Source of the DNA: Mobula birostris
Lineage: Eukaryota
NCBI RefSeq assembly: GCF_030028105.1
Contig: NC_092372.1
Span: 49,914,034 to 49,978,033 of the forward strand
Length of the DNA: 64,000 nt
Reading direction: 5' to 3'
Shown here: positions 20,801-63,110 of the stretch, piece after piece
How positions within the stretch are numbered: the first letter of the stretch is position 1
Layout of the letters: every line of letters starts with the position of its first letter
Notes under the pieces: generated by a model
What the model saw: the letters and a program-made list of their open reading frames with translations, nothing else
The model's database searches: none
Told to the model about the DNA's origin: nothing
Translations under genes and position numbers: made by a program

Positions 20801-21850
20801 CATGGAGATCATGAGTAGGATGGTCCAAAAGGTCCCTTTTTCTTCACCTGAGCAGCTTGTTAAATGGGTTACAGTTAGGAACAGTGTGTGGTCCAGTTAT
20901 GACCCACAAAAGGCCATTATGAGAGTGAAGAGGCAATTCCATGTGAAGTTAGTTTGGATGCATGACAGCTGTGGCAGCATTGGCATGCCATTACTTCCTA
21001 TAAGAACCTAACAGCATAAACGGCAGTGAGACTTCACTCCCCAATGAGCTCAGTACTTTTATGCACACTTTGAAAGGAAAAACAACGCCTTGCCTGGATG
21101 AATCCCCACAGCATTTGGTGACCTTGTGATCTGATTTGGTGACCTTGTGATTTGGAGGCTGATGTCAGAGCATCCTTCAAGAGAGTGAACTCTCACAAGA
21201 CTTCAGGCCCTGAAGGTGAACTCAGCAGGATGTTGTAAACACAAGAAATTCTGCAGATGCTGGAAATCCAAAGCAACATTCACAAATGCATGGTGGAGAG
21301 CATTTTGACTGGTTGCATTACAACCTGGCATGGCGCTTCCAGTGCACGGAATCACAAGAAGTTGCAGAGGGTTATGGACTATCGCCCTACAACGGAGAAC
21401 ATCTTCAAAAGGCAGTGCCTCAAGAAGGCAACACTCATCATTAAAGACCTTTGGCATTAGAGAAATACCCTCTTCACGTGATTGCCATCAGGGAACTGGT
21501 ACAGGAGACTCTGAAGACCCACACTCAACACTTTAAAGACAGCTTCTTTCCCTCTGCTACAAGATTTCTGAACAGTCCATGAACCCTGCATTGTTACAAA
21601 AATAAGTTGTGTAAAAGGCATAAACTAATTTTGCCTATTTGCAGTTGCAACAAAACAACAAATTTCACAACCTATGCAATGATAATAAATCTGATTCTGA
21701 CCAATATACGTTTGTTTTCAATCAGTATTAGTCTTGATAGTGAATGGCCATTTAAAAATGCATGATGATCTGGTCTGATCTTCAACCCCATTTGCATACA
21801 CGTAATCTGCTTACTTTTTAAATTTTAATTTTGAATAGGATTGAAATATA

Positions 21851-25238: not shown

Positions 25239-25439
25239 CGGGATAAAAGTAGGCTAGGTGAAAAATGGAATTGGGGAGCGGGGCATCTAGGGCAAAAAGG
25301 TAGAGGAGGCTGCACCGAGATGAGGGGAGGGCGAGAGGTGCATGTGGTGGTGGTGGGGTGGAAATTAGAAATGGAGAAGAGAGTAGTTGCTCCTTAGGAG
25401 TGAACAGGTCGTGTCTGGGGGCAGCTGATCAGAGGCCCA

Positions 25440-26310: not shown

Positions 26311-26560
26311 AGCAACACACACAAGTTGCTGGAGGAACTCAGCAGGCCAGGCAGCATCTTTGCAAAAGAGTAAACAATCGACGTTTCAGGCTGATACCCC
26401 TCACCACAACTGGAAAGGAAGGGGAGAAGTCAGAATAAGGTGATGGTGATAGGTGAAAGCTGGGAAGTTGATTGGTGAAAGACATAAGGGGGAATCTGAT
26501 TGGAGAGGTCAGAAGACCATGGAAGAAAGGGAAGGGGGAGGAGCACCAGAGGGATGTAAG
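26311..26560 (-). mobile_element. Older Penelope pLTR copy (further degraded copies at ~21240, 54680, 55800, 57600, 61590)
   Basis: GCAACACAC...GCTGGAGGAACTCAGCAGGCCAGGCAGCATC is the reverse complement of the pLTR end at 27490-27541. Confidence 0.75.
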
Positions 26561-26656
26561 AAGAGAATACTTGAGTGTGTTAAGATAGAATTAATGTTAG
26601 CAATTTCTAAATTAGCCTGAATTAGCCTACCATCGAGGACCTCTTCCGAAGGCGAT

Positions 26657-27541
26657 AGGCAGAGAAAGCACATCTAAGCACATCTTTCTCTCTCCACCCC
26701 TCTCCGCTTTCCGCAGGGATCGGTCCCTCTGCGGCTCCCTGGTCCACATGTCCCTCCCCACGGATCTCCCACCCGGCACTTATCCCTGTAAGCGCAAGTG
26801 CTACACCTGTCCCTACACCTCCTCTCTTGCCACCATTCAGGGCCCCAAACAGTCCTTCCAAGGGAGGCAACACTTGTAAGTCTGTTGGGGTCATCTATTG
26901 CATCCGGTGCTCCCAGTGCGGCCTCCTCTACATCAGTGAAACCCAACGCAGATTGGGGGACCGCTTCGTCGAGCACCTCCGCTCCGTCTGCCACAACAGA
27001 CAGGATCTCCCAGTAGCCCACTTCAACTCTGCTTCCCATTCCCATTCAGGTATGTCCATACATGGCTTCCTCTATTGCCATGATGAGGCCAAACTCAGGT
27101 TGGAGGAGCAACACCTCATATACCGTCTAGGTAGCCTCCAGCCCTTTGGTATGAACATAGAATTCTCCAACTTCCAGTAATTCCCTCCCCCCCAACTTCC
27201 TCTATCCCTATGTCACTCTGTCCCCTCCCCCAGCTGCCTATCACCTCCCTCATGGTTCCGCCTCCTTCTACTACCCATTGTGTTTTCCCCTATTCTTTCT
27301 TCACCTTTCCTGCCTATCACCTCCCTGCTTCCCCTCCCCCACCCCCTTATCTTTCCCCTTACTGGTTTTTCACCTGGAACCTACCGGCCTTCTCCTTCCC
27401 ACCCTCCCCCCACCTTCTTTATAGGGCCTCTGCCCTTTCCCCCTACAGTCCTGACGACGGGTTCCGGCCTGAAACGTTGACCGATCTTTTCCATGGATGC
27501 TGCCCGACCTGCTGAGTTCCTCCAGCGTGTTGTGAGTATTG
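26657..27541 (+). mobile_element. 5'-truncated Penelope-like retroelement: GIY-YIG endonuclease C-terminus plus pseudo-LTR
   Basis: ORF 26827..27180 GVIYCIRCSQCGLLYISETQRRLGDRFVEH...EEQHLIYRLGSLQPFGMN is a GIY-YIG signature; flanked by a 14-bp duplication CTTCCGAAGGCGAT (26643-26656, 27542-27555). Confidence 0.9.
27446..27483 (+). ncRNA. Putative minimal type I hammerhead ribozyme in the Penelope pLTR
   Basis: CAGTC-CTGACGA-C-GGGT TCCG GCCT-GAAAC-GTT-GACCG: conserved core boxes, stem I GTC/GAC, stem II, palindromic AACGTT helix III. Confidence 0.65.
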
Positions 27542-28267
27542 CTTCCGAAGGCGATGCCTCATAAAGGCGGGATCCATCATTAAGGATCCCCACTCAGGAC
27601 ATGCTCTCTTTTCATTACTACCATCAGAGACAAAGTATAGGAGCCTGAAGACACACAGTCACGTCTTAGGAACAACTTCCCCTCATCCATCAGATTTCTG
27701 AAAGATCAATGAACACCACCTTATTATTTTTGCACTACTTATTTAATTTATATTTCTTATTGTTATTTATAGTTTATTTTATCTATTGCACTGTATTGCT
27801 GCCACAAAACAATAAATTTTGCAACACAGGTCAGTGATAATAAACCTGATTCTGAAAAAGAAACAAGCCTGCCAAGACAGACGCAAGTGAAAACTATGAT
27901 TAACTTTTAACTTTTACAATATCAGAACAGCAGTGAAATTTACAACATAATAATGATTGAAGACAACATAAAATTAAGCTTGAGAGCCAAAATAGCATGT
28001 CTACTCAGAAGCTATATAGGTTGCCTCCTTTGGCAATCCTTTGGGGCAAAGTCCAGACAGGTTTACGAGAAAGATCCTGGAATGGCTGTTAACATGAGGA
28101 GTGTTTGATAGCTTTGGGCCTTCTATTTAATAGCAGAGAATATATACAATATACAACCAAAAATTCTTACTCTCCGCAGACATCAGTGAAGTAGAAGAAT
28201 GGCCCCAAAGAATGAATAACAGGAAAAACACGAGAACCCCTAATCCCCCCTCCCACGCACAAGCAGC

Positions 28268-30787: not shown

Positions 30788-31325
30788 ATTTCCTGAGGAG
30801 ACTGAGGTCCTTTAACATCTGCCAGACGATGCTGAGGATGTTCTACGAGTCTGTGGTGGCCAGTGCTATCATGTTTGCTATTGTTTGCTGGGGCAGCAGG
30901 CTGAGGGTAGCAGACACCAACAGAATCAACAAACTCATTTGAAAGGCCAGTGAGGATGGAACTGGACTCTCTGACGGTGGTGTCTGAAAAGAGGATGCTG
31001 TCCAAGTTGCATGCCATCTTGGTCAATGTCTCCCATCCACTACATAATGTACTGGTTGGGCACAGGAGTACATTCAACCAGAGACTCATTACACGGAGAT
31101 GCAACACAGAGCATCATCGTGTGATTCCTGCCTGTGCCATCAAACTTTACAACTCCTCCCTTGGAGGGTCAGACATCCTGAGCCAATAAGCTGGTCCTGG
31201 ACTTACTTCCTGGCATAATTTTACATATTACTATTTAACTATTTATGGTTTTATTACTATTTATTATTTATGGTGCAACTGTAACAAAAACCAATTTCCC
31301 CCGGGATCAATAAAGTATGACCATG
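30788..31325 (+). mobile_element. 3' fragment of the same Rex1/Babar-like family
   Basis: Near-identical reverse complement of ~18985-19530. Confidence 0.88.
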
Positions 31326-31505
31326 CAACACACATCAAAGTTGCTGGTGAACGCAGCAGGCCAGGCAGCATCTCTAGGAAGAGGTGCAGTCGACGTTTCA
31401 GCACCTCTTCCTAGAGATGCTGCCTGGCCTGCTGCGTTCACCAGCAACTTCTATGTGTGTTGCTTGAATTTCCAGCATCTGCAGAATTCCTGTTGTTTGC
31501 GTTTT
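31326..31505. mobile_element. Fold-back mini-insertion of the Penelope pLTR (63-bp inverted arms plus ~40-nt tail)
   Basis: Arms 31325-31387 and 31401-31463 with 2 mismatches; flanking 15-bp duplication TAAAGTATGACCATG (31311-31325, 31506-31520). Confidence 0.85.
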
Positions 31506-32413
31506 TAAAGTATGACCATGACTATGTTTGTACTTACGTACCTGTAGTGAAGCTGCTGCAAGCAAGTTTTTCAATGTTCCTCACTGTACTTGTGTACGTG
31601 ACAATAACCCCTCCTTGACTTGGGATATTGATCTAAGAGCCACTTAACCTTCTGGTGAATTTGGAGAAATTTGTGGAAAAGGGCATTTGTGATATTTTTC
31701 AGTGCCTTGACATAACTGCTGTAGAAGCATTTCAGAGAAAAGAGATTACTACTTCTCAAGCTGCTTCACAAAATGTTACCAAATAAAATTTGATAAGGAG
31801 ATAAGAAGGTTGTTTAAAAGCATGGGTTTTAAGGAGTCTTTTCTGATAAGATTATACATAAAAATAGTTACAAACAATAAATTACCAAGCACACCTGTAG
31901 CTTTGAACCCTAGCAACCTCAATTTTTTTTCTCCTAGTTAACTATTATAATGAAGTGATGACAATCATGTATCAAACAAAATTTTACTCATACTGTACCA
32001 AATCATTTTATTAAATAGCAGATTCCCTTGCTGGCATAGTAAGAGTAGTAAGCTAGATAGTCCCTCGAAATTCAAGTGCACCTCATGTATTGACCTGCTC
32101 AGATACTTCTCTTAGTTGAGAAATACTTGCTGCAGTTGTAGCCCCGCAGTTTGTGAATGGAAGCATTATGAAAGAGCCGACAAAGAGCATTCTGAACGTT
32201 TGGAATTCTTTATGCCAGAGACTCCTGGATAACAAAGTTCTGAAATAAAAAATTCTCATTTGGGAAGCCAACTGTGATGGGGAACAGGCAAGAAAGCAAA
32301 GTTGAAGTCCATTATTAAGGACGAGGTTTCAGGGTACTTGGAGACTAATGATAATGACACAGAGGCAAAATCATTATTGATCCTTATGAATTTTGCCTCC
32401 GTGTCATTATCAT

Positions 32414-35231: not shown

Positions 35232-36754
35232 ATACCATCAAACAAAACAGCTGAACTCTGGGGCCAAGGTGCAAAACACAGTATCAATATTTGTACATAG
35301 CACAAGGCACATATAGCACATACAAGCACATTAAAAAATATAATCTAAGTCCGAGTCCATGAGTGTTGCAGCAGTTTGCTGTCGAACACAATATAACTTG
35401 TCTTCTGCCAAGCAAACACTGGGGGCTGCACCGACTCTAGCATAGACACCACGCCACATTGCCTCCGACAGTCCAGTGGAGCGCCCGATTCTGACGCCTC
35501 TCCCTGGGTGGCTGCAAATGGGCGACACAGCAGCTTGAGGGCCAGTCCTCACCATGACCAAGGCCGTGCAGCTCCCCTGGTCACCACTCTGTCACTCGCC
35601 AATAAACCAATGAATCCGACTTGCGGCATTCCACACTACCAATATCCAAAAGGATCTTGCAAACTCAGGAAAAGCACCTAGGATGATCACTCGCTGTAAG
35701 GCTGCACACCACCTTGGCACATTAACACTCCTCTGTCACAAGAAGCGTCACGGTCCGCATCACTGTCTGCTTCAGTCTCTCCACCAACAAGCAACTCACT
35801 GGTGGGGTAGACTTCAGTACTTTAAGTTGTTAATGTCCAGCAAAGTCTTGCGATTGTAGAATATATATTAAAAAAATACATTACACCTTTGGTTGACCCC
35901 ATAGAAGCTGTTGTGTCTGAGCATGTGGTCAACTTACTGGAAGTCCGAATCCTTTTATCCTTAGTAACCTTTATTGACTTAATGGCTTTTTTTAAAATGG
36001 GAAAGGGTTCATGTTTTAAAAGTAACACTAGTAAGGATCTCTGCTTATTTAATAAATGCTTTGATGTATGAATTAAGTTTGGTTTGGTACATGACTCTCA
36101 TCATCTTACAAAATGCTGATAAAATTATTCATAATTACATACAGAATTCCTCCCATGTGTTTTAACAAAAATTGTGCTCTTGTCTGGACTATGTGCTGAA
36201 TTTAGATTTTGAGAAGTAAAGCCATATAAAGCACATTGGGTATGTTCAATTCTGATAAACAAAAGAGTAGATATGATCTTTAGTTATATTGTGTGTTATG
36301 TCCCAGTCTTATCCAAATCAAATAAAATAATCTGATTTGTACAATCCAGATAAGTGTTACCAGATTGGCAATTTTTACCTTGGCATTCTTTCAAAACATT
36401 GCTGAGCGACGCAATAGAAACCATTGGAATTCATTGATGAAATGGGAGAATCTGTATCCAATGGTAGTCACCGAGTACTATTTATCACAGAAGATATCAA
36501 GAATACCAAAGTGCATCATGTGTTTCTTCAAGACCTGAACTTTCTCACTCCTCACACTCCCCCTCCTCATAACGAGTGGGCCACCAACAATCTTGATAAA
36601 TGGGTGCTGCTATGTCTTTACTGCACTTGGACTTTTGTTCTAAAGTCTTTCCTGAGATCACTTTGTCACCTTTATTATTCTTTGATTCTGATTATATTCT
36701 GATTCAGTCTTACCTGACTTGGAGCCCATTACTCACCATAGCTACATGTAGCAA

Positions 36755-36893
36755 ACTGGGTCCTGACGAAGGGTCTCGGCCTGAAACGTCGACTGCACCT
36801 CTTCCTACAGATGCTGCCTGGCCTGCTGCGTTCACCAGCAACTTTGATGTGTGTTGCTTGAATTTCCAGCATCTGCAGAATTCCTGTTGTTTT
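36755..36893 (+). mobile_element. Short Penelope pLTR/tail copy (hammerhead plus 3' tail)
   Basis: Near-identical to 31401-31500 and similar to the 27446-27541 end of the GIY-YIG element. Confidence 0.8.
36758..36794 (+). ncRNA. Putative minimal type I hammerhead ribozyme in a short Penelope-derived copy
   Basis: GGGTC-CTGACGA-A-GGGT CTCG GCCT-GAAAC-GTC-GACT: intact core, GUC cleavage triplet, stems I and II. Confidence 0.7.
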
Positions 36894-38844
36894 TGTTTCT
36901 TTTGCATCATAGTAACCATCAAAAAGCATTAGGAGTAATGCAACTCATAGCACATAAATAATTTAAATAGTGATATTATTACCAGCTAATGCTCCTTTAG
37001 AATGTTGCTGAAAGTAGTTTTTTTAAAGTTTTGAAAATCATTGTATTGCAAACAAGGGAGGTGTGTTTTGAAGTCTTGCATGTAAACTATACTTCCAGGT
37101 CACACACCTACCTGGAGAAATGCCACTAATGTTCCTGCAAAAGCCTCCAAATACACTGGGGATACATGGCAAATGGATTGTTTTATTGTTGTCTTGTTTT
37201 GTTCCATTGCTGCTGTTTATGTTGTCGTGTTGGACATTGTGGCACCGGAATGAGTGGCATCACTCGCCAGCTGCCCCCAGCACATCATTGGGTGTGTCGG
37301 TTGTCTATGCAAATGAGGTATTTCACTGTATGTTTTGATGTACATGTGATAGACAAATGTGAATCTAAATTCCTTAACCACTTCCTCTGGCAGCTCATTT
37401 CAGGGATTAAAAAATGTTACCTCTCAGGTCTCATTTAAAATTCTCCCCTCATATCTATACCTTAAGGTACCTTAAAATTGTTATGGCCAGGGATGGTAAT
37501 GAGGGTAAGCTCCCACTGCCCATTAAATGCTCCCAATGGTAGCAACTCAGATAGCCTCTGACAACCAAGTCCAACTCCTGGCCTTCATGTGTGGCCAGTG
37601 GAACTGTTTCTACTGACAGGAGAAGGGGCAAAGGTGGATTACCGACACCTTAAAACTTTGGGGAGGTAGATCTTGTCAGCTGTGGTTGACAGCTCATCTA
37701 GAAGGAAAACTCTGATCTCAAAACTCCTTTATCTCAAATACTCATTTAGGCGGAAGGCTTCGCGTGTAAACCCTGAGGAAAAATCCAGAGCTGGAGTCCC
37801 TAAGGCAGTCCTATGTTGACTGGCAACTCCTGTGATGCTGCTGGTGCCAAACTATATTGGTCTCTGCTGTTCCTTTGGGTTCATCAGATGGATGGAGAGG
37901 GGAGCTTGCTACATGGGCAACAGCTTGCTCTCCATATCGTACTGCACAGGCTTGTGTATCTAGACAACCAGGATGCAACATCCATGGTTGACCCTGACCA
38001 GCTGAGGTCCCTGATATTTGTTTCAGTGTCTGCTGGTTTTGGACTCCCCAATCCTGGAGGAAAGACTGACTATGCACCTTATGCATTCCCCTCATAAAGT
38101 TATAAAGTTCTGTGAGGTCATCTTCATTCTCCTGCATGTCAAGGAATAAAGATCCAGTGTGGCCAGTGTCTTTCTATAACTCAGACCCTCTAGTCCAGGT
38201 AGCATACTCATAAATCTCTTTTGCACCCTCTCCAGATGGACAATGACTTTCCTGTAACAGGATGGCCAAAGCTGTACAGAATACTCCAGGTGTGGCCTCA
38301 CCAACAACTTATATAACTACAACATAATGTCCCTATTCCTCAACTCGATACCCTAATTGATGAAGGCCAGCATGTTTCCTTCACCACCCTATCTACTTGC
38401 TTGGCTGCTTTCAGCCAACTGTGCACTCATCACCAAACTCTGGACCTGGGGAGTCAGCGACTCCCTCTGTAACTGGATCCTTGGCTACCCGACCAAGAGA
38501 CCACAATCAGTAAGGACGGACAGCAACATCTCACCACAATCATTCAAAACACTGGTGCACGATAAGGTTGTGTCCTCAGCCCTCCCACTCTACTCCTTGT
38601 ACTCTTTGACTGCATGGCCTAATTTTGTTGTACTTCCATCTACAGGTTCTGGAATGGTGTGACTATAGTGGCTGTACCTCAAATGACAATGAGTTGGAGT
38701 ACAGGAAGGAGATAGACAGCTTAGTAACATGGTGTCATAACAAGCTTTCTCTCAATATCAGCAAGACAAAAAAAAACTGGTCATTGATTCAGGAAGTACA
38801 GTGGTGTAAATGCTTCCGTCTATATCAATGGTGTTGAGCTGAGA

Positions 38845-41855: not shown

Positions 41856-43927
41856 CTCATCTTCCCTCTTCCATTGGGACTGAAAGCACATACCACCAGC
41901 CTCTACCCTGCTGTTATAAGACTATTAATTGATTACATAGCACAATACGATGGATTCTTGACCTCACAAATCTATCTCGTTATGATCTGCACCTTATTTT
42001 CTACCTGCACTATGCTTTCTCTGCAGCTGTTACACTTTATTCTGCATTGTTTACTGCTTTATGTTGCTCTACCTCAATGCATTGTGTAATGATTTCATCT
42101 GTATGCCAGTATACAAGACAAACTTTCTATTGTCTCTCAGTTCGTTTGTTATGTGCCATGTTGTATGATGTAGGTGATCATGCTCTTTCCATGACCATGA
42201 TTGGTTGTTGGTAAATTTTTCTACAGAAGGGTTTTGCCATTGCATTCTGAATCCACCAAACTAATATCAACTTTCCCTCTCAGGTACCTCTGTTCGGTGC
42301 CTTGCCATTCACTGTATAGGTTTGAATGTCCAAAATTTTTCACCTCATACTTAAGTAAATTAAAATCCATTTGCCATTTTTTAGCCTATCTCCCCATGTA
42401 ATCACACTTTCTACTGCAGCAAGTAAGTTTTTCATTGCACCTGTGCATTTCATGCCAGAGAGTGGCAATTCATCGCAACCAGATCTCTACAGATTCATCC
42501 ATTACTTATATTATAATTGTTCCACTTTGTAAAATCTAAATTTTGTGTTTCTGCTTGTACTTTATTCTGTTGTTGTTTTACCTTGGACTACCTCAATGCA
42601 TTGTGTGATGATTATATCTGAGAATAGTAAACAAGACACACTTTCTTTACCTGATACATGTGACAATAATATACCAATTCAAAGATCTCATTGCAATTCA
42701 TTGTAAAATGCTTCACTGTTAACAAGACCCTCATAACTTATTATCATCAGCAAACTTACTAATTGTGCTGTGTACATTCACATCAAAATCACTTACCTGA
42801 ATAATGAGTAACAACAATAAATAATGAATAACAACACTGACCGCTGGGGCACCCCCAAAAGTCACAGGCCTCCAGTGAGAGAATCAATTGTCAACCATCA
42901 CCTTCCACGTCCTATCATTGATCCCATTCTAAATCCACCTCACTAGCTCCCCCTGAATCTCATGTGACCCAATCTTCTAGATCAGCCTGCCATGTGAAAC
43001 CTTGTCAGAGGCCTGACCAAAGTCCATATAGTCAACATCCAATACTCTACATTCATCTATCCCCTTAGATACGCCTTTGAAAAACTCCAAAGTATTAATT
43101 AGATATGACCTCCCATGCACAAAACCTTTCTGACTATTCCTGATCAGGCATTGACTCTTCATGTTGTCAAAACCTCCCTCCTACTAACTGTTGGGATCCC
43201 TAGACCATGTCCACTCAAAGTGGAGAAGCAGCATTCAAGATTACACTGAGAATGTCTATGCATCCAGATTATCAGAAGTTCCATGATAATGCAGAATCAT
43301 ACACCAGCTCATAAATTGCCCTCTGCCCCATCAGTGCAAAGTCTTTCTGTCCCGCATTAGGATCATCATTCAATTCAACTGGCATGGAAGAAGTCATCCA
43401 CACGTACTCCCAGGGATTCAACTAAGAATAAATGCAAGTTTAGAAAAAGTATAATAAAATCTAAAAGGCATAAGAGACTGCAGACATTGGAAATCTGGAG
43501 CAACATACCATGACACTGACAGAACTCACTGGGTCAGGCAGCATCAGAGGAGAGAAATGGCCAGTCGACAGTTCAAGCCAAAAACTTTCATCTGGAGTAG
43601 AGAGATAGAGATGAGAATAGCCGGTATAAAAGATGGAACAAGAGCTGCTTGGCAGATTAGGGAGGGATGAGAATGGGAATAATTTCAGAAGCTGGAAGGT
43701 GATAGGTGGAAGTGATAAAGAGTCTAAAAACGTGGAATCTGATAGGCGATGATAGTAGATCATGGAATTAAGGGAGGTAGGTGGAGAGTGGAACCAATGG
43801 GAAGAGTGTGTGGGTGATGGGCAGGTTGGATCAAGAGGATAGATAGAGAAAAGAAAAATCGTTGTGGGGGAGGTGGGTTGGTTGTTTGAGAAATTGTTTG
43901 AAGTAGCTATAGGAGTCATTGGGTTTG

Positions 43928-45330
43928 CAGACATCCCACCCTGCAAAAACTCATTTCAGGGAGGTAGCATCCCCACCCCCCGCAACCCCATATCCACCCC
44001 CTCCCCCGGCCGACCTCCAAGGGTGTATGTAATACTTTGATTAGTGATTTTGTCGAATCTGTAAACCAAGTTGGGTATATGCAGAAAATGTGACATTAAA
44101 ATATGTACTTATATTATCATGTTTATTCTATTACAACTTTAAGCAAGTCTATGGGGAGTTTGGCCTCTTCACATAAGACATCAGTAGCGTAGCTCCTTAG
44201 CAGCCAGCCAGCCAGTTTAAATAACATTAGCTATGCTAATGAACGAATGACACCTGTTAAACTCACCTCAACATGTTTTTTACATTTTAACCCACCATGG
44301 ACAATAGAAAAGTCACTGTTGCAAACAGTGCAGCGAGCAACACTGTCATTATTTTTGAGGTTGACTGTAAAGCCCGACCACAGAGAAGACTGATAGGTCT
44401 ACTTAGCAGGGGTCCCCAACCTTTTTTGCACCGCGGACTGGCCGACCGGAGCGGGGGAGGTGTTAATCACGACCGGAATATAGGTGATAGGTCACTATAA
44501 GTCACTTATAAGTGGCTAATACACTCAATTTCGTTTCTAAAAGGGCTTATCTAACGAATTTAATATTAAACACACAGCGCATATTTTCCTCACATGTATA
44601 TAGTGGTAAGTCAATTATAAGTCAATAGCATCATAACATTTTAAGTAACATTTGGATATTAAACACACAGCACAGATTTTCCTCATATAAAATCATGGCA
44701 ACACACCAATATTGCTGAATCAGTAGGAGCCCTGGGCTTGTTTTCCTGCAATAAGGCAGTCCCATCGAGGGGTAATGGGAGACAGCGATACTCGAAGGGG
44801 GTTCCTTATGTCCAGTCTATTCCGCAATTTTGTTTTCATTGCATTCATTGCAGAAAACCCCGCTTCGCAGAGATACATTGGAAATGGAAGCAACGTTTTC
44901 AGTGCTTTCGTGGCTATCTCAGGATATTCAGCCTTGACTTTGATCCAGAATGCTGGCAGATATGTTATGTCAAGCATACTTTTCAGCCCACCATCATTTG
45001 CAAGATCGAGAAGTTGATCTTCTCACGCTGACATGGGATGACGCGTGCGTAATGACCTCGCGTGCGTTCAAGTTCAATAGTAGGCGTGACAGGGAATGAG
45101 GAAAGGTGCAGCTGACTCATATCGCCAAATCATATCTTTCCCTCGCGGCCCGGTGGTTGGGGACCACTCTTAGCATGAAGGGAGGGCAATCAGGATGCTC
45201 ACACTCCCTCTCCCTCTCTTTCTCAAAAAAAAATCGATTTCTGAGATATTGTATATAATTTCCGGGCGTCAGGGAGCTGCTATCAATATGCGGGAGATTC
45301 CCGGAACTTCCAGGAGAGGTGGGATCTCTG
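43928..45330. mobile_element. Non-autonomous DNA transposon with TIRs CAGACATCCCACC / GGTGGGATCTCTG
   Basis: 13-bp TIR with 1 mismatch; GGTTTG duplicated on both flanks; removing it restores the Penelope sequence. Confidence 0.7.
44407..45168 (-). mobile_element. hAT (Charlie/Buster-like) internally deleted element
   Basis: TIRs CAGGGGTCCCCAACC / GGTTGGGGACCACT; ORF 44720..44977 FWIKVKAEYPEIATKALKTLLPFP.YLCEAGFSAM..KTKLRNRL is a hAT dimerization domain. Confidence 0.88.
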
Positions 45331-45859
45331 GGTTTGTAGAAGTTGTTGATGGATAATGTCTCCTGAGATGGAGGTAGAGAGAGGTCAAGAAAGAGGAGAG
45401 AGGTGTAGGAAATCGACCTATGAATTTGAGAGCAAGGTGGAAGCTGGGATCGAAGTTGATGAGCGCCATGTTTGTGTTATGGCTATGATATTCCAGTACT
45501 CAAAGCTAATCTAAGCTCTGAGTTCATCTGCCTTAACAGTCAAGACCCTTAGCAATGTAACATATGTAACAGTAGAGTCGGAGGAGGTTTTGAAGATTAA
45601 TTGCTTCATTCAGCTTCCAAAAAGACAGGAACGGCTGGGGCAGAAGCAAATATTCTGGCTACACCTTTGGTTTGGAGAAAATGGGAGGAGGCAAAAGAGG
45701 AATTAAAACTCATACAATGTATTTGCAGAAAAAACTACTTATGAATACAGATAAAATCTTTAAAAAACATTCAATAAGATGTGATTGGGACATGGGGCTG
45801 CTGTTGAATTTCCCTCTAGTAGTCACAGTTTATCATTGTTTGTGTTTTGAAATCTGTTG

Positions 45860-46240
45860 TATCGCAGTTCCCTCTTTGTCCACTGTCGGGGCCCGTAAAG
45901 CAGTTCGCGCATGCGGGTTGGGAGCGGTGAAGATGGACGTGAATCAGCCGAAGCAGGAGCATCTGCTCGCCCTGAAAGGTAACGTGTGACGCCGGGGCTG
46001 TAGCGATGAAAATCAACGGCGGGAGCTTGGGGTCGGGGCGGGGTGTTCAAGCAGCGGCCAAGCGAAGCAGGCGAGCTTAGTACTGGTCATTCAGTAGCTC
46101 TGCGAACCAATCTTTACTGTGATTTTTGGCCCCATTAATCAGCCGGTGTTCGGGGTTGGGGTCTGTTTCCCTGGCCGATCTGGGGACAGGAGCACAACAA
46201 CCAGACGTGTTCGCAGGTAAGCCCCGCGCACAGTTCTCAT
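45860..46240 (+). promoter_or_regulatory. TRAPPC13/SHLD3 CpG-island promoter with NRF1-like CGCGCATGCG (45906-45915)
   Basis: CpG-rich stretch around exon 1; motif match by eye. Confidence 0.65.
45933..45978 (+). CDS. TRAPPC13: TRAPPC13 coding exon 1 (MDVNQPKQEHLLALK)
   Basis: AAGATGG start in a CpG-rich island, 46 nt, donor G|GTAACG; matches human MEVNPPKQEHLLALK. Confidence 0.95.
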
Positions 46241-51097: not shown

Positions 51098-51564
51098 TTG
51101 TCACTATTTTTCATACCAGTTTGATATTCATTTGTTAAATTTCAAATGTGTTTTCAATCTCTACATTTCTGGAATCTACTGTATAATGTTACTTTTAATC
51201 TATGGATGCTATTTTTAAATTTATAAATGCTTTATAGTATATGATTTACAATTTCTGTGTCAGTGGACAATTAACCAACTTGCCCAAAAGTCAATGAGCC
51301 ATCACAATTTTGAGCAACACACATCAAAGTTGTCACTATTTTTCATACCAGTTTGATATTCATTTGTTAAATTTCAAATGTGTTTTCAATCTCCATATTT
51401 CTGGAATCTACTGTATAATGTTACTTTTAATCTATGGATGCTATTTTTAAATTTATAAATGCTTTATAGTATATGATTTACAATTTCTGTGTCAGTGGAC
51501 AATTAACCAACTTGCCCAAAAGTCAATGAGCCGTCACAATTTTGAGCAACACACATCAAAGTTG
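51098..51564. repeat. Direct tandem duplication, period ~232 bp
   Basis: TTGTCACTATTTTTCATACC... starts at 51098 and 51330; copies differ at only a few positions. Confidence 0.93.
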
Positions 51565-51690
51565 CTGGTGAACGCAGCAGGCCAGGCAGCATCTCTAAGA
51601 AGAGGTACATCTGATGTTTCAGGCTGAGACCCTTTGTCTTGATGTGTGTTGCTTGAATTTCCAGCATCTGCAGAATTCCTGTTGTTTGCA
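51547..51690. mobile_element. Second fold-back mini-insertion of the Penelope pLTR
   Basis: Inverted pLTR starting GCAACACACATC, then a forward end plus tail; flanking 13-bp duplication TCACAATTTTGAG (51534-51546, 51691-51703). Confidence 0.85.
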
Positions 51691-51969
51691 TCACAATTTT
51701 GAGTCCACTTTGCATCCTTAGGCTAAATGAGAGTATTTTTTATTAGGATTATGTATTAGGACTAAAAGAAGTTGCATTTTGAGTATTTGCACACAGCAAA
51801 ATATCAGGCCTTATGCATTTGTATATGGGAAAATTATTTGTTCTTTTTCAGAGTTGAATCATGTATAAAAATGACCATGGAGAAGGACAATGAAACTTTG
51901 TCCTTTTCATCTAGGAACACATTGGTGTATCCTGCTGTTTTTAAAAAAAAAAAAAAAAAATGTTTTATT

Positions 51970-53772: not shown

Positions 53773-55420
53773 GTAAGTCAGACTAACTTATGGTGATGGT
53801 GCTCTATCACTTTATATGCTTTAAGAATGTACACTTGCCATCAATAGGCATAATGTATATCTGAATGTAAGCTGTTGTCTAGTAAGAGATTATCTCTAGG
53901 TTTCTGGAGATAGATCCTATGAAATGCATGTGTTTTGTGTGCACAAAACTCAACTGCCTCTGAGAACAAGTATCAAGATCATTGCTGATCTAAGCTAAAT
54001 AAATTGACTTGGAGTTTCTGATCTCCAAGGTTATTAAAGTCTCCTTATGCAAATGCTGATTAAAAAAAATATGCAACATCACATTTTGAATCCACAACAC
54101 TGAGAATATACCAAGTAGCAAGTGATGCTTGTAATATTTTCAGTTTGGAGCATTTTGAACCTTTCTGTACAGAAAAGTGTGCCATTAAAGTGCTGGAACT
54201 TGCTTCTGTACTTTAGTATTGAAGCACAGCCATTCGTAGGTACTAAACTCTATCAGGTTTCTAGTATGGGATAGTTATGCAGGAATGTTTTTATTTGCTA
54301 CAGTGTAGTTGATTCTTCATGATATGTGTTCCTATCGCAAAGCTTTATTTCATTGTAATAAACCATCCTTGATGTTAGAAGTTAGAGATTGTGATTATTT
54401 GACATTGGCAATAAATGGTAATAGAAATCCTAGAAGCAAACTTCATAATAAACATAATTATCAACTAAACTACATTGCTATCTTCTGAAATAGACAGCTA
54501 TTGGGACAAACCATAGCATATTGACATAATCATTGTAGTTAGAATGCACTTGGTTGTAGCAGCATGTTACTCCTGGAAGTGTATATAATGCAGATCAGAG
54601 ACATCATACTGAAGTGAGTTAACTGCATATGCCCCTAGGTTTGATGAAGATCTAGAAAAAAGTTAAATCTCTGCTGAGATGAGAAAATCTGCAGATGCTG
54701 GCAATCCAAGCAACACACACAAAAAATGCTGGAGGAACTCAGCAGACCAGGCAGCATCTATGGAAAAGAGTAAACAGTCTATATTTCAACTAGACCCTTT
54801 GTCAAGATTGAAACCTCTACTGATACTCTGCAAGGACAGCCCCGTCCTTGGTCCCTTCTAACTGTGTAAAGCTTAAATTATCCAGAATTATTGGTACAAA
54901 ATTGTTCTCAGATTATTTAAAAAATGTATGTTCATAAACCAATTCATTCTGACATTTAGCCAGCATTTCAGTATACCATAGGAGCCATAATTGGGCCCAT
55001 TATGTCCATATCTGAAAGCAGGGATACCATAAAATAGGTACTGGTCTACTGTAGTTAGTCAATTGTTGATTGTGCTATTGTTGACATCAGATGCTTTAAT
55101 CAAAACATTTTGGCAATAAGTTTATTCTTAATGTTTATATTAATTCAGGAACAAGTTTTGTTTCATGTACAAAGGTTATAGATAGTAGAGTAGTGGGTTA
55201 CACAGGGAAATACATTCTTGTACAGAAAAGAGATTGTTATTCCATGCAACCCGGTAAGTTAAAATCAAAAGTGGCCCCATTGGTAAACATTGAACAAACA
55301 GTGATCAAGCACATGCATTAAACAATAAGGAATATTAAAGTTGTGATTTTTCTTTTCTTTATAGTTCTTTATGAGTGAAGAGCTAAATATTTATTACTAA
55401 TGGTCCAATTTTTGCAACAG

Positions 55421-55520: not shown

Positions 55521-57370
55521 GTAAGATTGCCTTAATTATTAATGCTGTTTGTTGTTAAGGTTTTACTTACATTTCTCTTTTTTTCTGGATCATTTACACC
55601 CCACATGCCAATTAGAAAAGAACCAAAAGGAGTATTGTGGAATGGTCCTTTTAGTACAGAATTAAAATGCTGTGGAAATATTTAGTGCACTCATCCAAAA
55701 GAGTCATGGGTCTTCTGTTCTGTTTTGGATTAAAGGATTTTTTTTTCTTCAGTTAATCCACTGGAATTCTGTACCATTTATTAATCCAAATGAAAATGAT
55801 TACAAATGCTGGTAATTGGAAATTACAGCAGACAATGTTGGAAAAGCCCAGTAGGTCAAATAGCATCTGTGAAAAGAGGAATAGAGCTAATACTTCAGGA
55901 TGATGACCTTTCATCAGAATTAGGCAAAGTTAGAGATGACCAAGCTTGAGTAAAAGGAGGAGAGAAAAGATTTATGTGCGATAGGATGGAAGGCCTTAAA
56001 GAAAAAAAATACTTAGTGATGTATAATGAAAGAAGCATTTTAACTGAAAATGTGGTTAATAATTTGATTAACCATCTTATCATCAATGGAGAAGAATCCT
56101 TGTTTTTTTTTAAAAAAAAGACCTTTTCGCAGAATCTGTATGGAAGATTTTATTATCCAAAACAGAAACTGGGTAAATGGAATGTTCATTTCAGGAACTG
56201 GGTGAGTAGAATCTCTATCAAGGTAGCTGTGGGAGTTGGTGTGCTTACTTTCACATCAGGTCATTCACTTGACCACTGAACTTGAGATAGTAAGATTGTG
56301 AAGAAGGTGGGAAGAATCTGAAATGGAATGTTTCACATATCTTGGAACATGATTAGCATAGCTTAGCCTCCATTGGTTCTCACATCAACACTTATTATTT
56401 TGAAGAGCAAAATGGAGGAACATTGAAGTTATTCAATGAGATACCAGTTATGACTATTGGAGAATGGTGGTAGTACAGGAATTAGACAGCTATTCAAAAA
56501 GCAAAGGGTCCCTGTGGTCTTGGTTGGGCATGGAAGTGCAGAGAGACTAGGTATCTATGGTGATAATAAATTAATAAGGAATGAAACTGGAAGGGTAAAG
56601 TATATGATATAAGAATGTAGGAAATAAAGTCTCCTTGCATGTGCTTCGCCATTTGATAAGATCATGGCTGATTTGTATTTTAGAATCATTTCTCTTAAAG
56701 TCCAAAAATCTACCAATATACTCAGTGACTGAAGCATTTTGAGGGTTCCAAAAATTCTGTACTCTCTGAAGATATCTCATTTGTCTTGCATGGCTAACCC
56801 ACTCCCCTCTCCATTTTTAATTTCTCAAGCCCCGAATAAAATTGCTGTTATTGTAGCTGTGTGGAAAGAGAGTGGGGGGGGGGGGGGAAAAATAGTAAAC
56901 CGATAAATTTTATGGACAAGCACAGGCTGAAATAGTGGGCTTATCAAAGTGTTTCTATTTGTAGATTGTGAGAAGATCTGTGTGATCATTATGAAGAGTT
57001 TTCTAACCAGTCTGAAATTTGAATTTGTCCCTTTATCTTTTGCCACATTTTCATGTGAAGCAAAGTTCCATACAATTTTGTAACAGTTAATACTTGTATC
57101 TTAATACTTCCTGTCCATTTGTTTATTCGTGCTGTCTCAGTTGAAAAGCCTTTGTTTTTCCATTCTGGGTGTTGTAGATCAGTCTCTACAAATTTCATTT
57201 TATAATTGATTTGTCCTACTTGCTGTGAGAGGAATATTTAATTTTTAAATAAAATACTTCTTTTGTAAAGCTGCAATAATAACCCCTGTTATGTATGTTT
57301 TAATGTAAATTGGTTTGCTGTTACTTTTATCGTTGTGCAAAAATAATTTGACATTGTTTTTTTTTTGTAG

Positions 57371-57455: not shown

Positions 57456-59580
57456 GTGAGGAAATCAGCTGTATTCTGTATGTGATTTGCGTACGGACAT
57501 GATTTAGCAACTTAGAGATCAATACACACACTATTTGGTTTTCCCATTAGATATATTGTGTGCTTGCTGGTAAACACATTTATTTGACACTGACGCATCA
57601 GTAAATGCTGGAAATCTTCGCAATGCACAAAATGCTGCTGGAACTCAGCAGGTCAAGTAGTAACTGTGAGGGAAATAAGCAGTCGACATTTCAGGCTGAG
57701 ACTCCTCATAGGACTGGAAATGACAGAGTCAGAAGCCAGAATAAGAAGGTGGGGAAGAGGGAGAGGAATGCAAATCATCAGGTACAATATAGTGTGATTT
57801 GGTAAATAAATGGAATTGATCTTTGAGGAACATATTTGGATTACTTGAGAATTGCCTGCAAGAGATTTAGATGCAGTTGTAGAATGATGGACTTGCTGTT
57901 TTTTTTTTGAAAAAGTTTTATTTACTGTCCGTCATTAATTGGAATTGGTTTATTGTCATATGTACTGAGGAACAGTGAAAAACTTGTGTATTGTTCATAC
58001 AGATCAATTAATTACACAATGCATTGAGATAGTACAAGATAAAACAATAACAGAATGCAGCTTAAAGTGTTACAGCTACAGAGAAAGTGTAGGTAGACAA
58101 TAAAATGTAAGGTCATAATGAGGTAGATTTTGAGGTCAAGAATCCATCTTATCATATTAGGGAAACCGTTCAACTGTCTGATTACAGTGGGGGATAAGCT
58201 GTCCTTGAGCTTTGTAAAAAGTGCTTTCTGGCTTCTGTATCTTCTGTCTGCTGGAAGAGGGGAGATGAGAGGTTATCCAGAGCGGGTGAAGTCCTTGATT
58301 ATGCTGGCTACTTTACTGAGGTAGTGAAAACTATAGACAGTGCCCGCAGAGGGGAGGCTGGTTTCCATGATGTGCTCTCGGTAGTTTCTTGTGGTCACAT
58401 GTGGAGCAGTTGTAATACCAAGCTGTGATGCATCCAGATGAGATGCTTTTTATGGTGCATTGTATAAAAATTGGTAAGAGCTAATGGGAACATGCTAAAC
58501 TTCTTAGCCTCCTGAGTGGTTGGTGAGCTTTCTTGCCCATGATGTCAACATGGTGGACCAGGACAGGTTATGGTGATGTTCACTCTGAGGAACTTGAGCC
58601 TCTCAATCCTCTTGATCTTAACACTGTTATAGGCAGGAGCATGCGCATTGCTCCTTGAGCCAATGACCTGCTCCGCTGTTTGCCCTTGAGAATGTGGTTG
58701 ATGAGTGTCCTTTTTTAAAAACCACTCCAAGTGATGTCTTGAAGCAAATAATGACTTCAAAGGTAAATAATGCTTCTGGCTTCTCTTGGTGTCCACTCAT
58801 TGGAATCTCCATGGATTTGCTATCCTGAGTGCTGTTATTGGAGGAAAGCTGATTCATTCAGTGCATGAGGTGGTGTTAGTTAACTATTAAAGCTCATGCG
58901 TGGTGCCTCATAGGATCTAGAGGTAATACCAATGACTTCCTCATGTTGTTTTCTGCTTCAGTTGGCTCTGTCCTGCAGTTAGTACAGGACATACTTGGGC
59001 AGTGATAGAAGAGTCTGGGATGCTGGTTGAAAGGTATGATTCTATTAATCTATTGCACTACCCCAGATGCTTATGAAGCAGAGGTTGCAGGCTTGACTGG
59101 ACTGGATAGGCCTTTGCCGTATTCAGACGATAGCCTCTCCTGTTTGTTGTGATTTGATACAACGGAGGGGTTTACTAGGCCACTTTAGAGGGCAGTTCAG
59201 AGTCAATTACGTCGTAGCAGAAATTAACCAGACCAGGTAAGAATCTATAGGTAGTATTTTAATTTCCCTTCTCTAAAAGATATTGGATCAAAGCATGCTA
59301 GACTAAGCCTGCTGCTCAGGTTTAGCACCTCTGGTCACTTTGACCCAAGTGTGGGGAAAAATTTTGGCTGCAAACCCATGTCTCCAATTCATGGTGGAAA
59401 AATGCTTCATAATTTCTGTTTCTGTGATGTTGCCATGAATATTTGGATATCATTTTCTCAGATATTTGTGATTGTGCATTGATTTTGCAGGTCAAAATAC
59501 TGCTTGTTTTTTTGATTAAACAATACTTCTTCGATTAAACAATACTTGTTCAATCTATCATTAAGCCATTTTTCTTCTAG

Positions 59581-59708: not shown

Positions 59709-62700
59709 GTAAGTTTTAATTTTTCATTTTAATGAGGGTCTGAAATATGTTTGCCTGAGAATAACAATGTAAAACTAGGGCCACAGAAAGACTCTAGTGA
59801 TAGTAAAAGAACTGTGAAGTTATGCAAAACCTCAAATAAACAGCTACATCTGGTCCCGGAGCAGAAGGATGTTCCAGGGATTTGCAGTGTGTCATCATTT
59901 CAGAGTTTTGTGTGCTATCAGTAATTAAAATTATTATGACGGTCATGAGTTTTTAATCTTGTAATGCTATTTTATTAAGAGATTACTTGTGATTAATTGT
60001 AATACTTTGGTCAAAAATTGCATTCTTTCCAAGCAAGTACAATTTTCATGTCAGAAATATATTACTCAATTGTTGGTTTGAAAAAAGAGGGTTAAAAATT
60101 AAATATTAGAATTTTTAAAAATTTACTTAAATACTCATAAATTTTACAGTCTAACTGAATATTTAGACACAAACCTATAGCATAGGATTAATACACAACT
60201 ATTATGCCTTTGACCTAAGTTGAACTGTGTAGAAGTGGAAAATGTAGCATAAAAACTGGGCCTGTAAATATTTTAGGAGTGAGCTGAAGAAATCAGAAAT
60301 CTGAACACGTTATTCTCATTTCCCGTAGCCGTCTGTAAGTTGTTTTATGCAGAGTAGTGAATGGTCATTTCCCATTTTACTCCATTTGCTATGGAGCCAA
60401 TGAAACTGGAGTAAGAGTGGGAATACATTATATGCTGCCCTCCAAAACTTGTTTTCTCTCCCTTTGACTGCATTTAAAAAAAAGTTACAATGTTTAGACT
60501 GAGATTCAATAGGATGGAAATAAAACAATAAAACTAAACAATTTCTTTAGTAACTAACGAATTTAGAATTGGTGTGAAGATTATCAGACTAAACACACAT
60601 CACTGTGCCCTTTGAGTTAGAAATCAATTTTTAAGAAATTTGATCCATGGAAAGGTAATACATAGAATCTAAACTCATTGTTACTTTTGTTTTCAGGTTA
60701 TTATATAATTGACCAATTTTGCTGACCTAAGTAGTAAAATTGCAATATATGCTACTTAGAAATCTATTGGACTGTCTCTTTTTCTGCTAATTTGTGTTGA
60801 CGTGCTTTTCAAAACTTCAAATCCTCAGCATCTTAGTCTAATTGCCTAATTTGAGTTTGCTTCATGAGCCTTGTTCTTGAACTTAGCCAGTGTTATGGCA
60901 GGCATCTGCATTATTTTAAAATGCTGACAATAGTTTAGTTTGTTGATGCACAGCTTATATGGAAATCTCAAGTTGCTGACAATGATTGAGCCTTCCTCAG
61001 TAGAATGCATTGATTGCTGATTTCAGCAGCATAATAAAACAAAATAGTTTGGAATTGTATTAACTAAATTATTTGCAATCTAGTATCACTATGTAATGTC
61101 CGGAAAAATCTTGTGGAAAGTTTTAATGTCTGAGTGTTGTTATTCATTTAAAAAAACACATATGCAACTATCCTAATGCCATCAGAGAGTACTTTTTTTT
61201 GCAAATGTAAATTAGTTTTCCTATTATAGTTTCATAGTAAAAATATTTCAGTTTAAGGAATGTCTTAAAATTGCTTTCATAGTTAACCTTAATCTTTTTA
61301 ATCTGTTTGAAACTATTTAAAGCTCTTTATAATATCGGAAATTTTTACACTTGCCTTTTCTTCCTGGACTGGTGTGATAATTTATATGATTGGGCAGTTT
61401 GATTACAAATGGCTGGCATGGATCTTTTGAACTGACACATGACCTAATGGATGTGCTAAAGGGATTGCTAAGTTATTGTGGGAAGCACCTTTGAATTTAG
61501 TGGTTAGTTCAGTTACTTTGGAGCTGAATGAAAGTCCTGTGCTAATAAGCAAGAATATGAGAAAAGTCAAGATAATCAAAAAAACACGAGATTCTGCAGA
61601 TGCTGGAAATCCAGATCAACACACAAAAAATGCTGGAGGAACTTAGCAGGCCAGGCAACATCCATGGAAATGAAATAAACATCCAATGTTTTGGCCAAGA
61701 TCCTTCATCAGGTCTCAATATAATCTACTTCCTTTTGTTCCCTAACTCTCACTATAGCAATTATTCATCAAATAGCAAATTATTAATCAGCCTTTAGTGG
61801 TAAATTGTATTAATAACTTTACTTATTTTTAACTGAGCACTGAAATTTGATTTCAAAGTTTACAGCAGGTTAAATATAAACTGGGGAGGGGGTGGAACAA
61901 TGACAAATGGAATTTAATCCCAACAACTGCGGGTTTTGCATTTTGGGAAATCAAATAGGGTTAGGATTATAGTAATCATTGTTGAGAAACAGAAGGACCT
62001 TGGGATACAAGTCCACAGTTCTCTGAAAGTGGCAACAAGGTGGATAGTTGCTTTTATCATAGAATATATTGCATCCATGAAAGACTTGGGATGTCACATT
62101 ACAAGTTGACAATACATTTGTTAGGTTGCACTTGGAATATTGTGGCCAGTCTGATCACCACATAGTAATGATTATGCTGGAAATCGTGCAGGGATTCAAC
62201 AGGATGTTGCTTGGGTTGGAGAGTTTTATCTACAGGGTGATATTGGATGTACTACTTCTTTAAAGTGAAGGGGGCTGAGGGTGACCTGAGAGAGGAATAT
62301 AATTTTGAGACACTCAAAATTATGCGAGGCATATATAGGGTAGATGGTAAGAATTTCATGATGGACTTGTCTGAAATGAAAGCGTAGCTTATGGGGAGAA
62401 AGGGCAAGAGGAAAGTTTATTCTCCACACAGAGTGGCTGATGTCTGGAATGTATTCCAAAGAAGCGGAGGAGGCAGAAACAATTATGCCTCTAGAAGCAT
62501 CTAGGCTAACACTTGAGTATCCAAGACATAGAAGCTTAATATGGGCAAATAGAATTGGTATAGGTGGGCAAAGGTCAGTGTGGTTGTGGTGGGCTGAACA
62601 CTTTTTTTTGTACAGGCTCTAAATTTACCTTGAGATACGTTTACAAAGGCAATTTAATACTTTTCCTGTTCTTTTCTACATTTTTAAGATAATAAACCTT

Positions 62701-63079: not shown

Positions 63080-63110
63080 GTAGTAATTGGGATTGGAATT
63101 GGTTTATTGG

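What the first reader, a model, noticed from the sequence alone, without database searches (positions are those of the whole stretch)
36758..36794. Minimal hammerhead ribozyme carried by the most abundant short repeat in the window
Seen: GGGTC-CTGACGA-A-GGGT(CTCG)GCCT-GAAAC-GTC-GACT has both hammerhead core boxes (CUGANGA, GAAA), stem I (GTC/GAC), a 4-bp stem II, a GUC triplet and a palindromic ACGT where helix III should be. The same motif lies in the pLTR of the GIY-YIG element (27446-27483). Decayed versions occur at ~26376, 43562, 51614, 54780, 55890, 57680 and 61685. Known: Penelope-like elements carry minimal type I hammerheads thought to cleave as dimers via palindromic helix III. Inference: this ubiquitous 'ctgcagatgctgg...gcagcatc' repeat is a ribozyme-bearing Penelope terminus spreading as non-autonomous, retrozyme-like copies, about 10 in 64 kb.
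Basis: partly seen in the sequence, partly recalled or inferred. Interest (0 to 1): 0.75.

Follow-up and report, generated by a model that had tools for sequence, protein, structure and literature searches.

The report
Minimal hammerhead in Penelope retroelement tail
The 37 bases are a minimal hammerhead-ribozyme motif at the tail end of a Penelope-like jumping gene scattered through this likely ray genome; such motifs are already described and would cut RNA only in pairs, and the short copies are likely truncated insertions rather than a new self-spreading element.

Summary
36760-36793 fits the published minimal type I hammerhead (min-HHR) consensus of Penelope-like elements (PLEs), and 2 of 300 shuffled windows gave even one such motif. 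The repeat occurs at 10 loci in 64 kb, but only 2 of 10 keep an intact motif.

One copy ends a 5'-truncated PLE with a CX3CxxC linker, a GIY-YIG-type endonuclease and a 14-bp target duplication. Two others are head-to-head inverted insertions with 15- and 13-bp duplications and a ~36-40-bp tail on one end only, a known PLE signature.

52,731 contigs of one DNA run lie on the repeat. They show two 3' ends and only rare, variable tandem joints, so "retrozyme-like" is not supported. Covariation was not shown and cleavage is untested. The monomer is predicted to fold into an inactive hairpin.

This scan has reported the same kind of motif in other cartilaginous-fish windows (unchecked notes). Verdict: new member of a kind described in 2014; low interest.

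The parts
36760..36793 (+). Minimal type I hammerhead motif: stem I GUC/GAC, CUGACGA + bulged A, 4-pair stem II, GAAA, ACGU palindrome, GUC triplet; predicted cut after 36790
   Evidence: sequence; descriptor scan; fits consensus in PMC4209133 Fig. S3 except the G.U closing pair of stem II
36760..36898 (+). Whole short insertion: PLE 3' terminus (pLTR piece) from the hammerhead to the end of the tail; no target duplication found
   Evidence: public contigs pile up on 36760-36892 and drop to depth 4-30 outside
36859..36898 (+). Optional ~36-40-bp tail between the two 3' ends of the family
   Evidence: loose ends at 36856/36858 and 36885/36892; tail-less ends at 27541, 26311, 31326, 51547
26657..27541 (+). 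5'-truncated Neptune/Nematis-type PLE: CX3CxxC linker, one frameshift, GIY-YIG-type endonuclease, pyrimidine-rich 3' region, hammerhead, tail-less end; by my reading of the flanks inserted in a LINE fragment
   Evidence: 14-bp target duplication 26643-26656 / 27542-27555
27448..27481 (+). Second intact min-HHR (bulged C, GUU triplet)
31326..31505 (.). Head-to-head inverted insertion of the 36760 subfamily: minus piece 31326-31401 (tail-less, lacks CUGANGA), plus piece 31401-31505 (with tail); 15-bp duplication 31311-31325 / 31506-31520
51547..51690 (.). Head-to-head inverted insertion of the same subfamily: minus piece 51547-51638 (tail-less, starts inside the core), plus piece 51639-51690 (with tail); 13-bp duplication 51534-51546 / 51691-51703
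26311..26500 (-). Decayed copy, core broken, tail-less; extends roughly 85-100 nt upstream along the PLE 3' region
43460..45704 (-). Old PLE copy: decayed hammerhead at ~43556-43602; RT remnant at 45321-45704 separated by an inserted sequence; no endonuclease detected
   Evidence: (tblastn E 7e-6)
54682..54807 (-). Decayed copy with tail, starts at the hammerhead
55800..56354 (-). Oldest copy (55-67% identity to others): decayed hammerhead at ~55878-55925, weak RT-thumb remnant at 56163-56354
   Evidence: E 0.006; E 0.0018
57605..57760 (-). Decayed copy, 1-nt deletion in the core, extends ~55 nt upstream
61568..61713 (-). Decayed copy with tail, starts at the hammerhead
21237..21278 (-). Tail-only fragment

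Best explanation
36760-36898 is the 3' end of a Penelope-like retroelement, likely of the Neptune clade, and carries a minimal hammerhead motif that would cut RNA only when two motifs pair; the short copies are likely 5'-truncated insertions made by the parent element's enzymes. Shown here: the motif; its place just after a GIY-YIG-type ORF in one copy; target duplications of 13-15 bp; two alternative 3' ends about 36-40 bp apart; head-to-head inverted insertions with a tail on one end; very high abundance. Inferred from published PLE work: the endonuclease nicks target DNA, reverse transcription starts at one of two internal sites (giving tailed or tail-less ends) and usually stops early; priming from both nicked strands would explain the inverted pairs. 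The ribozyme is predicted to matter only in transcripts of tandem or full-length parent copies, where two ACGU palindromes form helix III, probably with protein help. A lone copy like 36760, likely lying between two divergent genes, is predicted to fold into an inactive hairpin and to decay neutrally.
For: Motif matches the published min-HHR consensus, and near-identical layouts are listed there, e.g. a coral Neptune PLE with 3-bp helix I, CUGACGA-A and CGUC. Chance: 2 of 300 shuffles with one hit. The 26657-27541 copy matches a ray protein holding PLE RT + CX3CxxC + GIY-YIG (P0002; 66% and 84% over two frames, E 9e-72; GIY-YIG Pfam match on P0002-P0005 at E 3e-4 to 2e-3, below the curated cut-off). 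Duplications of 14, 15 and 13 bp; 0 of 300 random spans had a flanking repeat >=12 bp. Two 3' ends with heterogeneous flanks, agreement 0.37-0.48, match the 30-40-bp PLE tail (PMC8557442) and the two RT start sites (PMC11167929). 5' ends vary: 5 of 10 copies start within the first ~22 nt of the motif; 5 of 10 extend upstream, two of them to RT remnants. 8 of 10 motifs are broken or cut short. No copy starts at the predicted cut site, in line with uncleaved RNA being the template. A competing GACG/CGUY helix that buries the core has pairing probability 0.77-0.98 in monomers.
Against: No ORF-linked copy of the young 36760 subfamily (4 segments at 3 loci, 90-96% identical) is in the window; the ORF-bearing copy is only 64-73% identical to them. 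Half of the copies start at the hammerhead's 5' edge, which a dedicated short family would also give. The 36760 copy has no target duplication. Covariation is not above shuffles (278 of 500 as high, 9 sequences). Nearest-neighbour energies do not favour the swapped dimer (-10.3 versus -30.9 kcal/mol for the best dimer fold), though that model ignores core contacts. No cleavage evidence of any kind; no whole genome was held.
Confidence: 0.65

Rival explanations
1. The young 36760 subfamily is a dedicated ~140-170-nt non-autonomous PLE derivative (SINE-like solo pLTR) with a fixed 5' end at or just upstream of the hammerhead, copied in trans by a Neptune protein, dispersed rather than tandem.
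For: None of its three loci here extends upstream of the motif. 5 of 10 copies overall start at the motif's 5' edge. Sequence before 36760 in public contigs has low agreement, 0.35-0.44. Non-autonomous PLE derivatives sharing 3' ends are described (PMC8557442).
Against: The same loose ends give a pyrimidine-rich consensus ending in CA or CAGTTA, like the PLE 3' region, so many copies run further upstream. Two of the three loci start inside the core, and at different places. The contig data cannot separate mixed subfamilies from unique flanks.
Confidence: 0.25
2. One reading: a non-LTR retrozyme, i.e. tandem hammerhead units processed into circular RNA and re-inserted.
For: Retrozymes derived from PLE pLTRs are reported in vertebrates, including one chondrichthyan (bioRxiv 10.64898/2026.07.22.740005). 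A few head-to-tail joints exist, e.g. 36878 back to 36760 in one contig of each of 4 runs.
Against: No tandem array of this unit in the window. The 5 'goes back' joints among 15 shown (24 not shown) have 0-3 contigs per run, depth 3.9-40 against millions on the repeat, at five different positions, which looks like PLE partial tandems. Sequence after the 3' end is heterogeneous. The motif is minimal rather than the canonical type of retrozymes.
Confidence: 0.05
3. The motif is a chance or non-functional look-alike, not a ribozyme descendant.
For: No Rfam hammerhead hit; fold z-score 0.00; no covariation.
Against: Descriptor hits are rare in shuffles. The motif sits where PLE hammerheads sit. 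Core letters persist in copies 55-80% identical. Pairing is 81% in register versus 19-51% when slid, though the structure was derived from one of these copies.
Confidence: 0.03
4. Inserted copies cleave host transcripts in pairs, so sense-strand intact copies are selected against in introns.
For: All 5 hammerhead-bearing segments inside TRAPPC13 are antisense (post hoc; p 0.031 one-sided, 0.0625 two-sided). The two intact motifs are on one strand and have complementary swapped stems.
Against: They are 9,312 bp apart and likely intergenic. Antisense bias could also come from the AG-ending pyrimidine tract acting as a splice acceptor. Published min-HHR activity is low or protein-dependent.
Confidence: 0.05

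Closest known systems
Minimal hammerheads (min-HHR) in pLTRs of metazoan Penelope-like elements (Cervera & De la Pena 2014, PMC4209133)
   Same: CUGANGA plus one extra base, short helix I, GAAA, palindromic 15.2-16.2 with no loop 3, NUH triplet, U-rich upstream flank, mostly single dispersed motifs tied to truncated PLEs.
   Different: G.U instead of G-C at the base of helix II (several motifs in their Fig. S3 also show G.U). No cartilaginous fish among the motifs listed in Fig. S3 as I read it. Density here, about 31 intact motifs per Mb (95% interval 4-113, from 2 motifs in one window), may exceed their totals of ~4,000 for coelacanth and ~9,000 for Xenopus.
Neptune (or Nematis) clade EN+ PLEs (features from PMC8557442)
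   Same: C-terminal GIY-YIG-type endonuclease with two cysteines in the core, CX2-5CxxC linker, 5' truncation, inverted 5' pieces, 30-40-bp tail on one end.
   Different: Only a truncated, frameshifted copy is in the window; no RT tree was built, so Neptune versus Nematis is not tested.
Poseidon element of Anolis (PAc; PMC11167929)
   Same: Two RT start sites defining an optional tail; hammerhead about 100 nt upstream of the 3' ends; insertions that include the uncleaved motif.
   Different: Poseidon lacks the CX2-5CxxC linker. One duplication here is not AT-rich (43% AT; the others 67% and 69%). Protein-assisted cleavage was shown for PAc and is untested here.
Non-LTR retrozymes of animals (PMC7229834; bioRxiv 10.64898/2026.07.22.740005)
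   Same: Short, non-coding, type I hammerhead, related to PLE pLTRs.
   Different: Not in tandem arrays, motif minimal rather than canonical, no circular RNA evidence, PLE-type ends and duplications.

Membership tests
PLE min-HHR | Core boxes CUGANGA and GAAA with NUH triplet | tested here: met
   36763-69, 36783-86, 36788-90
PLE min-HHR | Extra base between 9 and 10.1 | tested here: met
   A36770; C27458 in the second motif
PLE min-HHR | Palindromic 15.2-16.2, no helix III loop | tested here: met
   ACGU in both intact motifs
PLE min-HHR | Helix I and II pairing; G10.1-C11.1 usual | tested here: met
   Helix I 3 Watson-Crick + 1 wobble; helix II 4 pairs but closed by G.U, a variant present in the published alignment
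PLE min-HHR | Covariation in stems across the family | tested here: inconclusive
   278 of 500 shuffles as high with 9 decayed copies; one search listed no differences within about 29 bases of the repeat's ends, which covers the core
PLE min-HHR | Location in the terminal repeat of a PLE | tested here: met
   27448 motif starts about 270 nt after the endonuclease stop in a duplication-flanked copy; the 36760 copy is 73% identical to that terminus
PLE min-HHR | Self-cleavage as a dimer | not testable with these tools
   needs in vitro assay
Neptune/Nematis-type EN+ PLE | C-terminal GIY-YIG endonuclease downstream of a PLE RT | tested here: met
   Window EN piece is 84% identical to P0002, which has RT motifs upstream; Pfam GIY-YIG below cut-off on P0002-P0005 and absent on the window's own ORF
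Neptune/Nematis-type EN+ PLE | CX2-5CxxC linker motif | tested here: met
   CX3CxxC in the frame from 26658
Neptune/Nematis-type EN+ PLE | Optional 30-40-bp tail and inverted 5' pieces | tested here: met
Neptune clade specifically | RT phylogeny | not tested
   no reference RT set was fetched; Neptune is inferred from the linker and from Neptune and Poseidon being the clades found in vertebrates
Non-LTR retrozyme | Tandem head-to-tail units each with a hammerhead | tested here: not met
   no array in the window; only rare, variable joints in 4 public runs, 15 of 39 joint rows shown
Non-LTR retrozyme | Canonical type I hammerhead (6-bp helix I, loop 1-2 contact) | tested here: not met
   3-4-pair helix I, minimal layout (definition). 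The 2026 preprint also admits minimal motifs
Non-LTR retrozyme | Monomeric circular RNA | not testable with these tools
   only contigs were available, no raw RNA reads

The most novel reading that the evidence does not exclude
Ray genomes hold on the order of 10^4-10^5 intact minimal hammerheads on a dedicated short PLE-derived family, and these cut host pre-mRNAs often enough to be purged from the sense strand of introns. Comparing orientation of intact versus core-broken copies would then be a genome-scale in vivo test of whether PLE hammerheads cleave at all, a question the papers read leave open.
Probability: 0.06. Interest if true: 0.55.

Novelty: new member of a known kind. Interest (0 to 1): 0.17.

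Why it matters
The finding is correct but ordinary: PLE terminal repeats are reported to carry such hammerheads across animals, and most genomic copies are single truncated pieces. Its value is as test material. The role of PLE hammerheads is still unsettled (PMC8557442; in PMC11167929 cleavage was not needed for insertion in vitro and no cleaved ends were seen in RNA-seq). A family at roughly one copy per 6 kb, with young and old subfamilies and clean tail and inversion signatures, would give high statistical power for orientation, 5'-end and covariation tests.

Tried and rejected
Rfam: no hammerhead family hit; my reading is that its models do not cover the helix-III-less form.

More copies with flanks: no whole genome held. 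Motif scans found nothing in viral contigs, GTDB genomes or the first metagenome scan. The second metagenome scan gave 2 loci, L001 and L002, with only a 24-25-nt match and no hammerhead; both were rejected as chance and left out of all counts.

Expression: no RNA holder listed on record. Two runs guessed to be RNA had 6,104 and 5,900 contigs on the repeat and no cover of the unique flanks; this is no evidence either way for this locus.

Core conservation from contig variants was rejected, because listed differences begin at 36788 and end at 36863, so the core is not covered. At 36788, 36790 and 36791 transitions of about 7-10% in run X1 fit CpG decay.

Insertion shared by organisms A and B: contigs cover flank plus 24-25 nt of the element, below the 31-nt bridging rule, so suggestive only.

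The covariance model R1 re-found its 9 training copies and nothing new below E 0.1; it is circular.

A shared spliced leader upstream of copies that start at the motif was rejected: they share no upstream sequence. A 12-bp palindrome at 36741-36752 and a possible 6-nt inverted stub at 36751-36756 were seen but are too short to call.

Literature searches listed no paper describing this ray family itself. Lunse et al. (PMC5785218) is not held and was not read; the bioRxiv supplements naming the chondrichthyan retrozyme families, and supplement file 1 of PMC4209133, could not be seen and may cover it.

Full report
Observation. A descriptor for this layout finds 2 motifs in the window, at 27451 and 36763. 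Of 300 local dinucleotide shuffles, 2 gave one hit and none gave two. Rfam reports no hammerhead, and the fold energy is no better than shuffles (z 0.00), so the case rests on motif layout and context, not on stability.

The repeat. BLAST and nhmmer place the family at 10 loci (11 segments at E<1e-6, 10 of them seeds; shuffled windows reached at most 6.7 bits), plus two short fragments. Pairwise identity spans 55-96%, with a young group at 36761, 31324/31402 and 51545 of 90-96%. Only 2 of 10 loci keep an intact motif. On 9 aligned copies, 81% of stem cells pair versus 19-51% in slid registers, but covariation is not above shuffles (278 of 500 as high).

Link to Penelope-like elements. The copy ending at 27541 is the 3' end of an 885-bp insertion flanked by a 14-bp duplication. 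Its 5' part encodes, across one frameshift, a CX3CxxC linker and an endonuclease piece 66% and 84% identical to protein P0002, which has PLE-type RT motifs upstream. Pfam GIY-YIG scores on these homologs are below the curated cut-off, and the window's own frame has no Pfam hit. The linker marks Neptune or Nematis (PMC8557442, passages); Neptune is my inference. Two older copies have weak RT remnants upstream on the same strand. The host is a cartilaginous fish, likely a ray: the closest named relatives of both the endonuclease piece and the SHLD3 protein are batoid proteins at 84%.

Ends and junctions. Insertions 31326-31505 and 51547-51690 each consist of two head-to-head pieces between exact duplications of 15 and 13 bp; no random span of 300 had a flanking repeat of 12 bp or more. 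In both, one outer end stops at the equivalent of 36856-36859 and the other runs about 36-40 bp further. Public contigs show the same two 3' ends, at 36856/36858 and 36885/36892, followed by heterogeneous sequence (24 loose-end rows shown, 782 not). This is the described PLE tail present on only one end (also PMC3846280, passages), explained for the anole element by two internal RT start sites (PMC11167929, parts 1-2 of 4). The 36760 copy has the tail, starts at stem I and has no detectable duplication.

Abundance and arrangement. 52,731 contigs of run X1 and 88,889 of run X5 (another organism label) lie on the 321-bp stretch, almost all within 36760-36892. These figures are not copy numbers. 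Extrapolating from this one window gives 156 loci per Mb (75-287) and 31 intact motifs per Mb (4-113). Head-to-tail joints exist but are rare, at low depth and at varied positions (5 of 15 rows shown; 24 rows not shown; X5 counts incomplete). No tandem array of the unit is in the window. PLE expansion in whale shark introns is already reported (10.1101/443036, passages).

Likely working. In the parent element, two motifs on one transcript would pair their ACGU palindromes to make helix III and cut after the NUH triplet. This dimer model is from PMC4209133 (main text parts 1-2 of 4 and supplement file 2 parts 1-2 of 3) and a review (PMC6765202, passages); reported activity is low, and protein-assisted in the anole element. 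In the monomer, a helix between GACG in the core and the 3' CGUY is predicted at probability 0.77-0.98, and the swapped dimer is energetically unfavoured in a model that ignores core contacts. No window copy starts at the cut site and many include the whole motif, in line with uncleaved RNA being copied. The 36760 copy lies between two CpG islands (25400-25800 and 45800-46300) that likely start a minus-strand RING/B-box TRIM gene and the plus-strand TRAPPC13/SHLD3 locus (the name TRIM23 is recalled from human synteny). It is therefore likely intergenic and without a partner motif nearer than 9.3 kb.

Against my reading. The young subfamily has no ORF-linked copy here, and 5 of 10 copies start at the motif's 5' edge, so a dedicated short non-autonomous family is not excluded (0.25). 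All 5 motif-bearing segments inside TRAPPC13 are antisense; this is post hoc, small (two-sided p 0.0625) and has a splice-site alternative.

Comparison and verdict. It works like, and passes the sequence tests for, the min-HHR of metazoan PLE pLTRs; cleavage and covariation remain open. It fails the tandem-array test for non-LTR retrozymes (PMC7229834, passages; bioRxiv 10.64898/2026.07.22.740005, parts 1-3 of 5, which reports retrozymes in one chondrichthyan; its supplements were not visible). My searches listed no paper on this ray family itself, but Lunse et al. was not available. Earlier notes of this scan describe the same kind of motif in other cartilaginous-fish windows (unchecked); sequence and place look-ups found nothing. 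New member of a known kind; interest 0.17.

Noticed in passing
window 48690-49448 (+), 55387-63124 (+), 45800-46300: SHLD3 ORF (84% to a sawfish protein) lies after a probable first exon and before four TRAPPC13_N-matching exons, so it is likely nested in TRAPPC13's first intron.
   Followed up: partly
window 13529-16248 (-), CpG island 25400-25800: RING and B-box exons of a TRIM gene on the minus strand; its probable start is ~20 kb from the TRAPPC13 start, with the gap filled by repeats.
   Followed up: partly
window 51098-51561: 232-bp tandem duplication (98-99% identical) that includes the target duplication and 20 nt of the tail-less end of the 51547 insertion; post-insertion duplication or assembly artefact.
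   Followed up: no
window 51545-61713: All 5 hammerhead-bearing segments inside TRAPPC13 are antisense to the gene; no hammerhead-bearing copy in 1-25700.
   Followed up: partly
window ~44000-45320: An inserted sequence, by eye like a hAT/Charlie DNA transposon remnant (label recalled), interrupts the RT remnant of the old PLE copy ending near 43460.
   Followed up: no
window 43460-45704 and 55800-56354 (-): Both old copies go from an RT-thumb remnant to the terminal repeat within ~250-400 bp of PLE-like sequence with no endonuclease detected; possibly internally deleted derivatives.
   Followed up: partly
window 63145-63227: Near-perfect ~38-bp-arm hairpin that hits several miRNA models far below their thresholds; probably a small inverted-repeat element.
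   Followed up: no
window 27430-27447, 26410-26450 (-), 57712-57750 (-): A pyrimidine tract ending in AG sits right before stem I, like a splice acceptor; in Drosophila virilis Penelope the intron ends at helix I (PMC4209133).
   Followed up: no
proteins P0002, P0003, P0006 (Hypanus sabinus): Several annotated stingray gene models (named protein kinase domain 1C, mucin-2, ABHD14A) match this PLE's endonuclease piece; likely annotation artefacts from PLE sequence.
   Followed up: no
joint 36859/36892: A recurrent opposite-strand joint between the two 3' end positions (5 contigs in X1, 9 in X5), i.e. tail-to-tail or tail-inverted copies.
   Followed up: no
window 36741-36752: 12-bp perfect palindrome 8 bp upstream of the insertion.
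   Followed up: no
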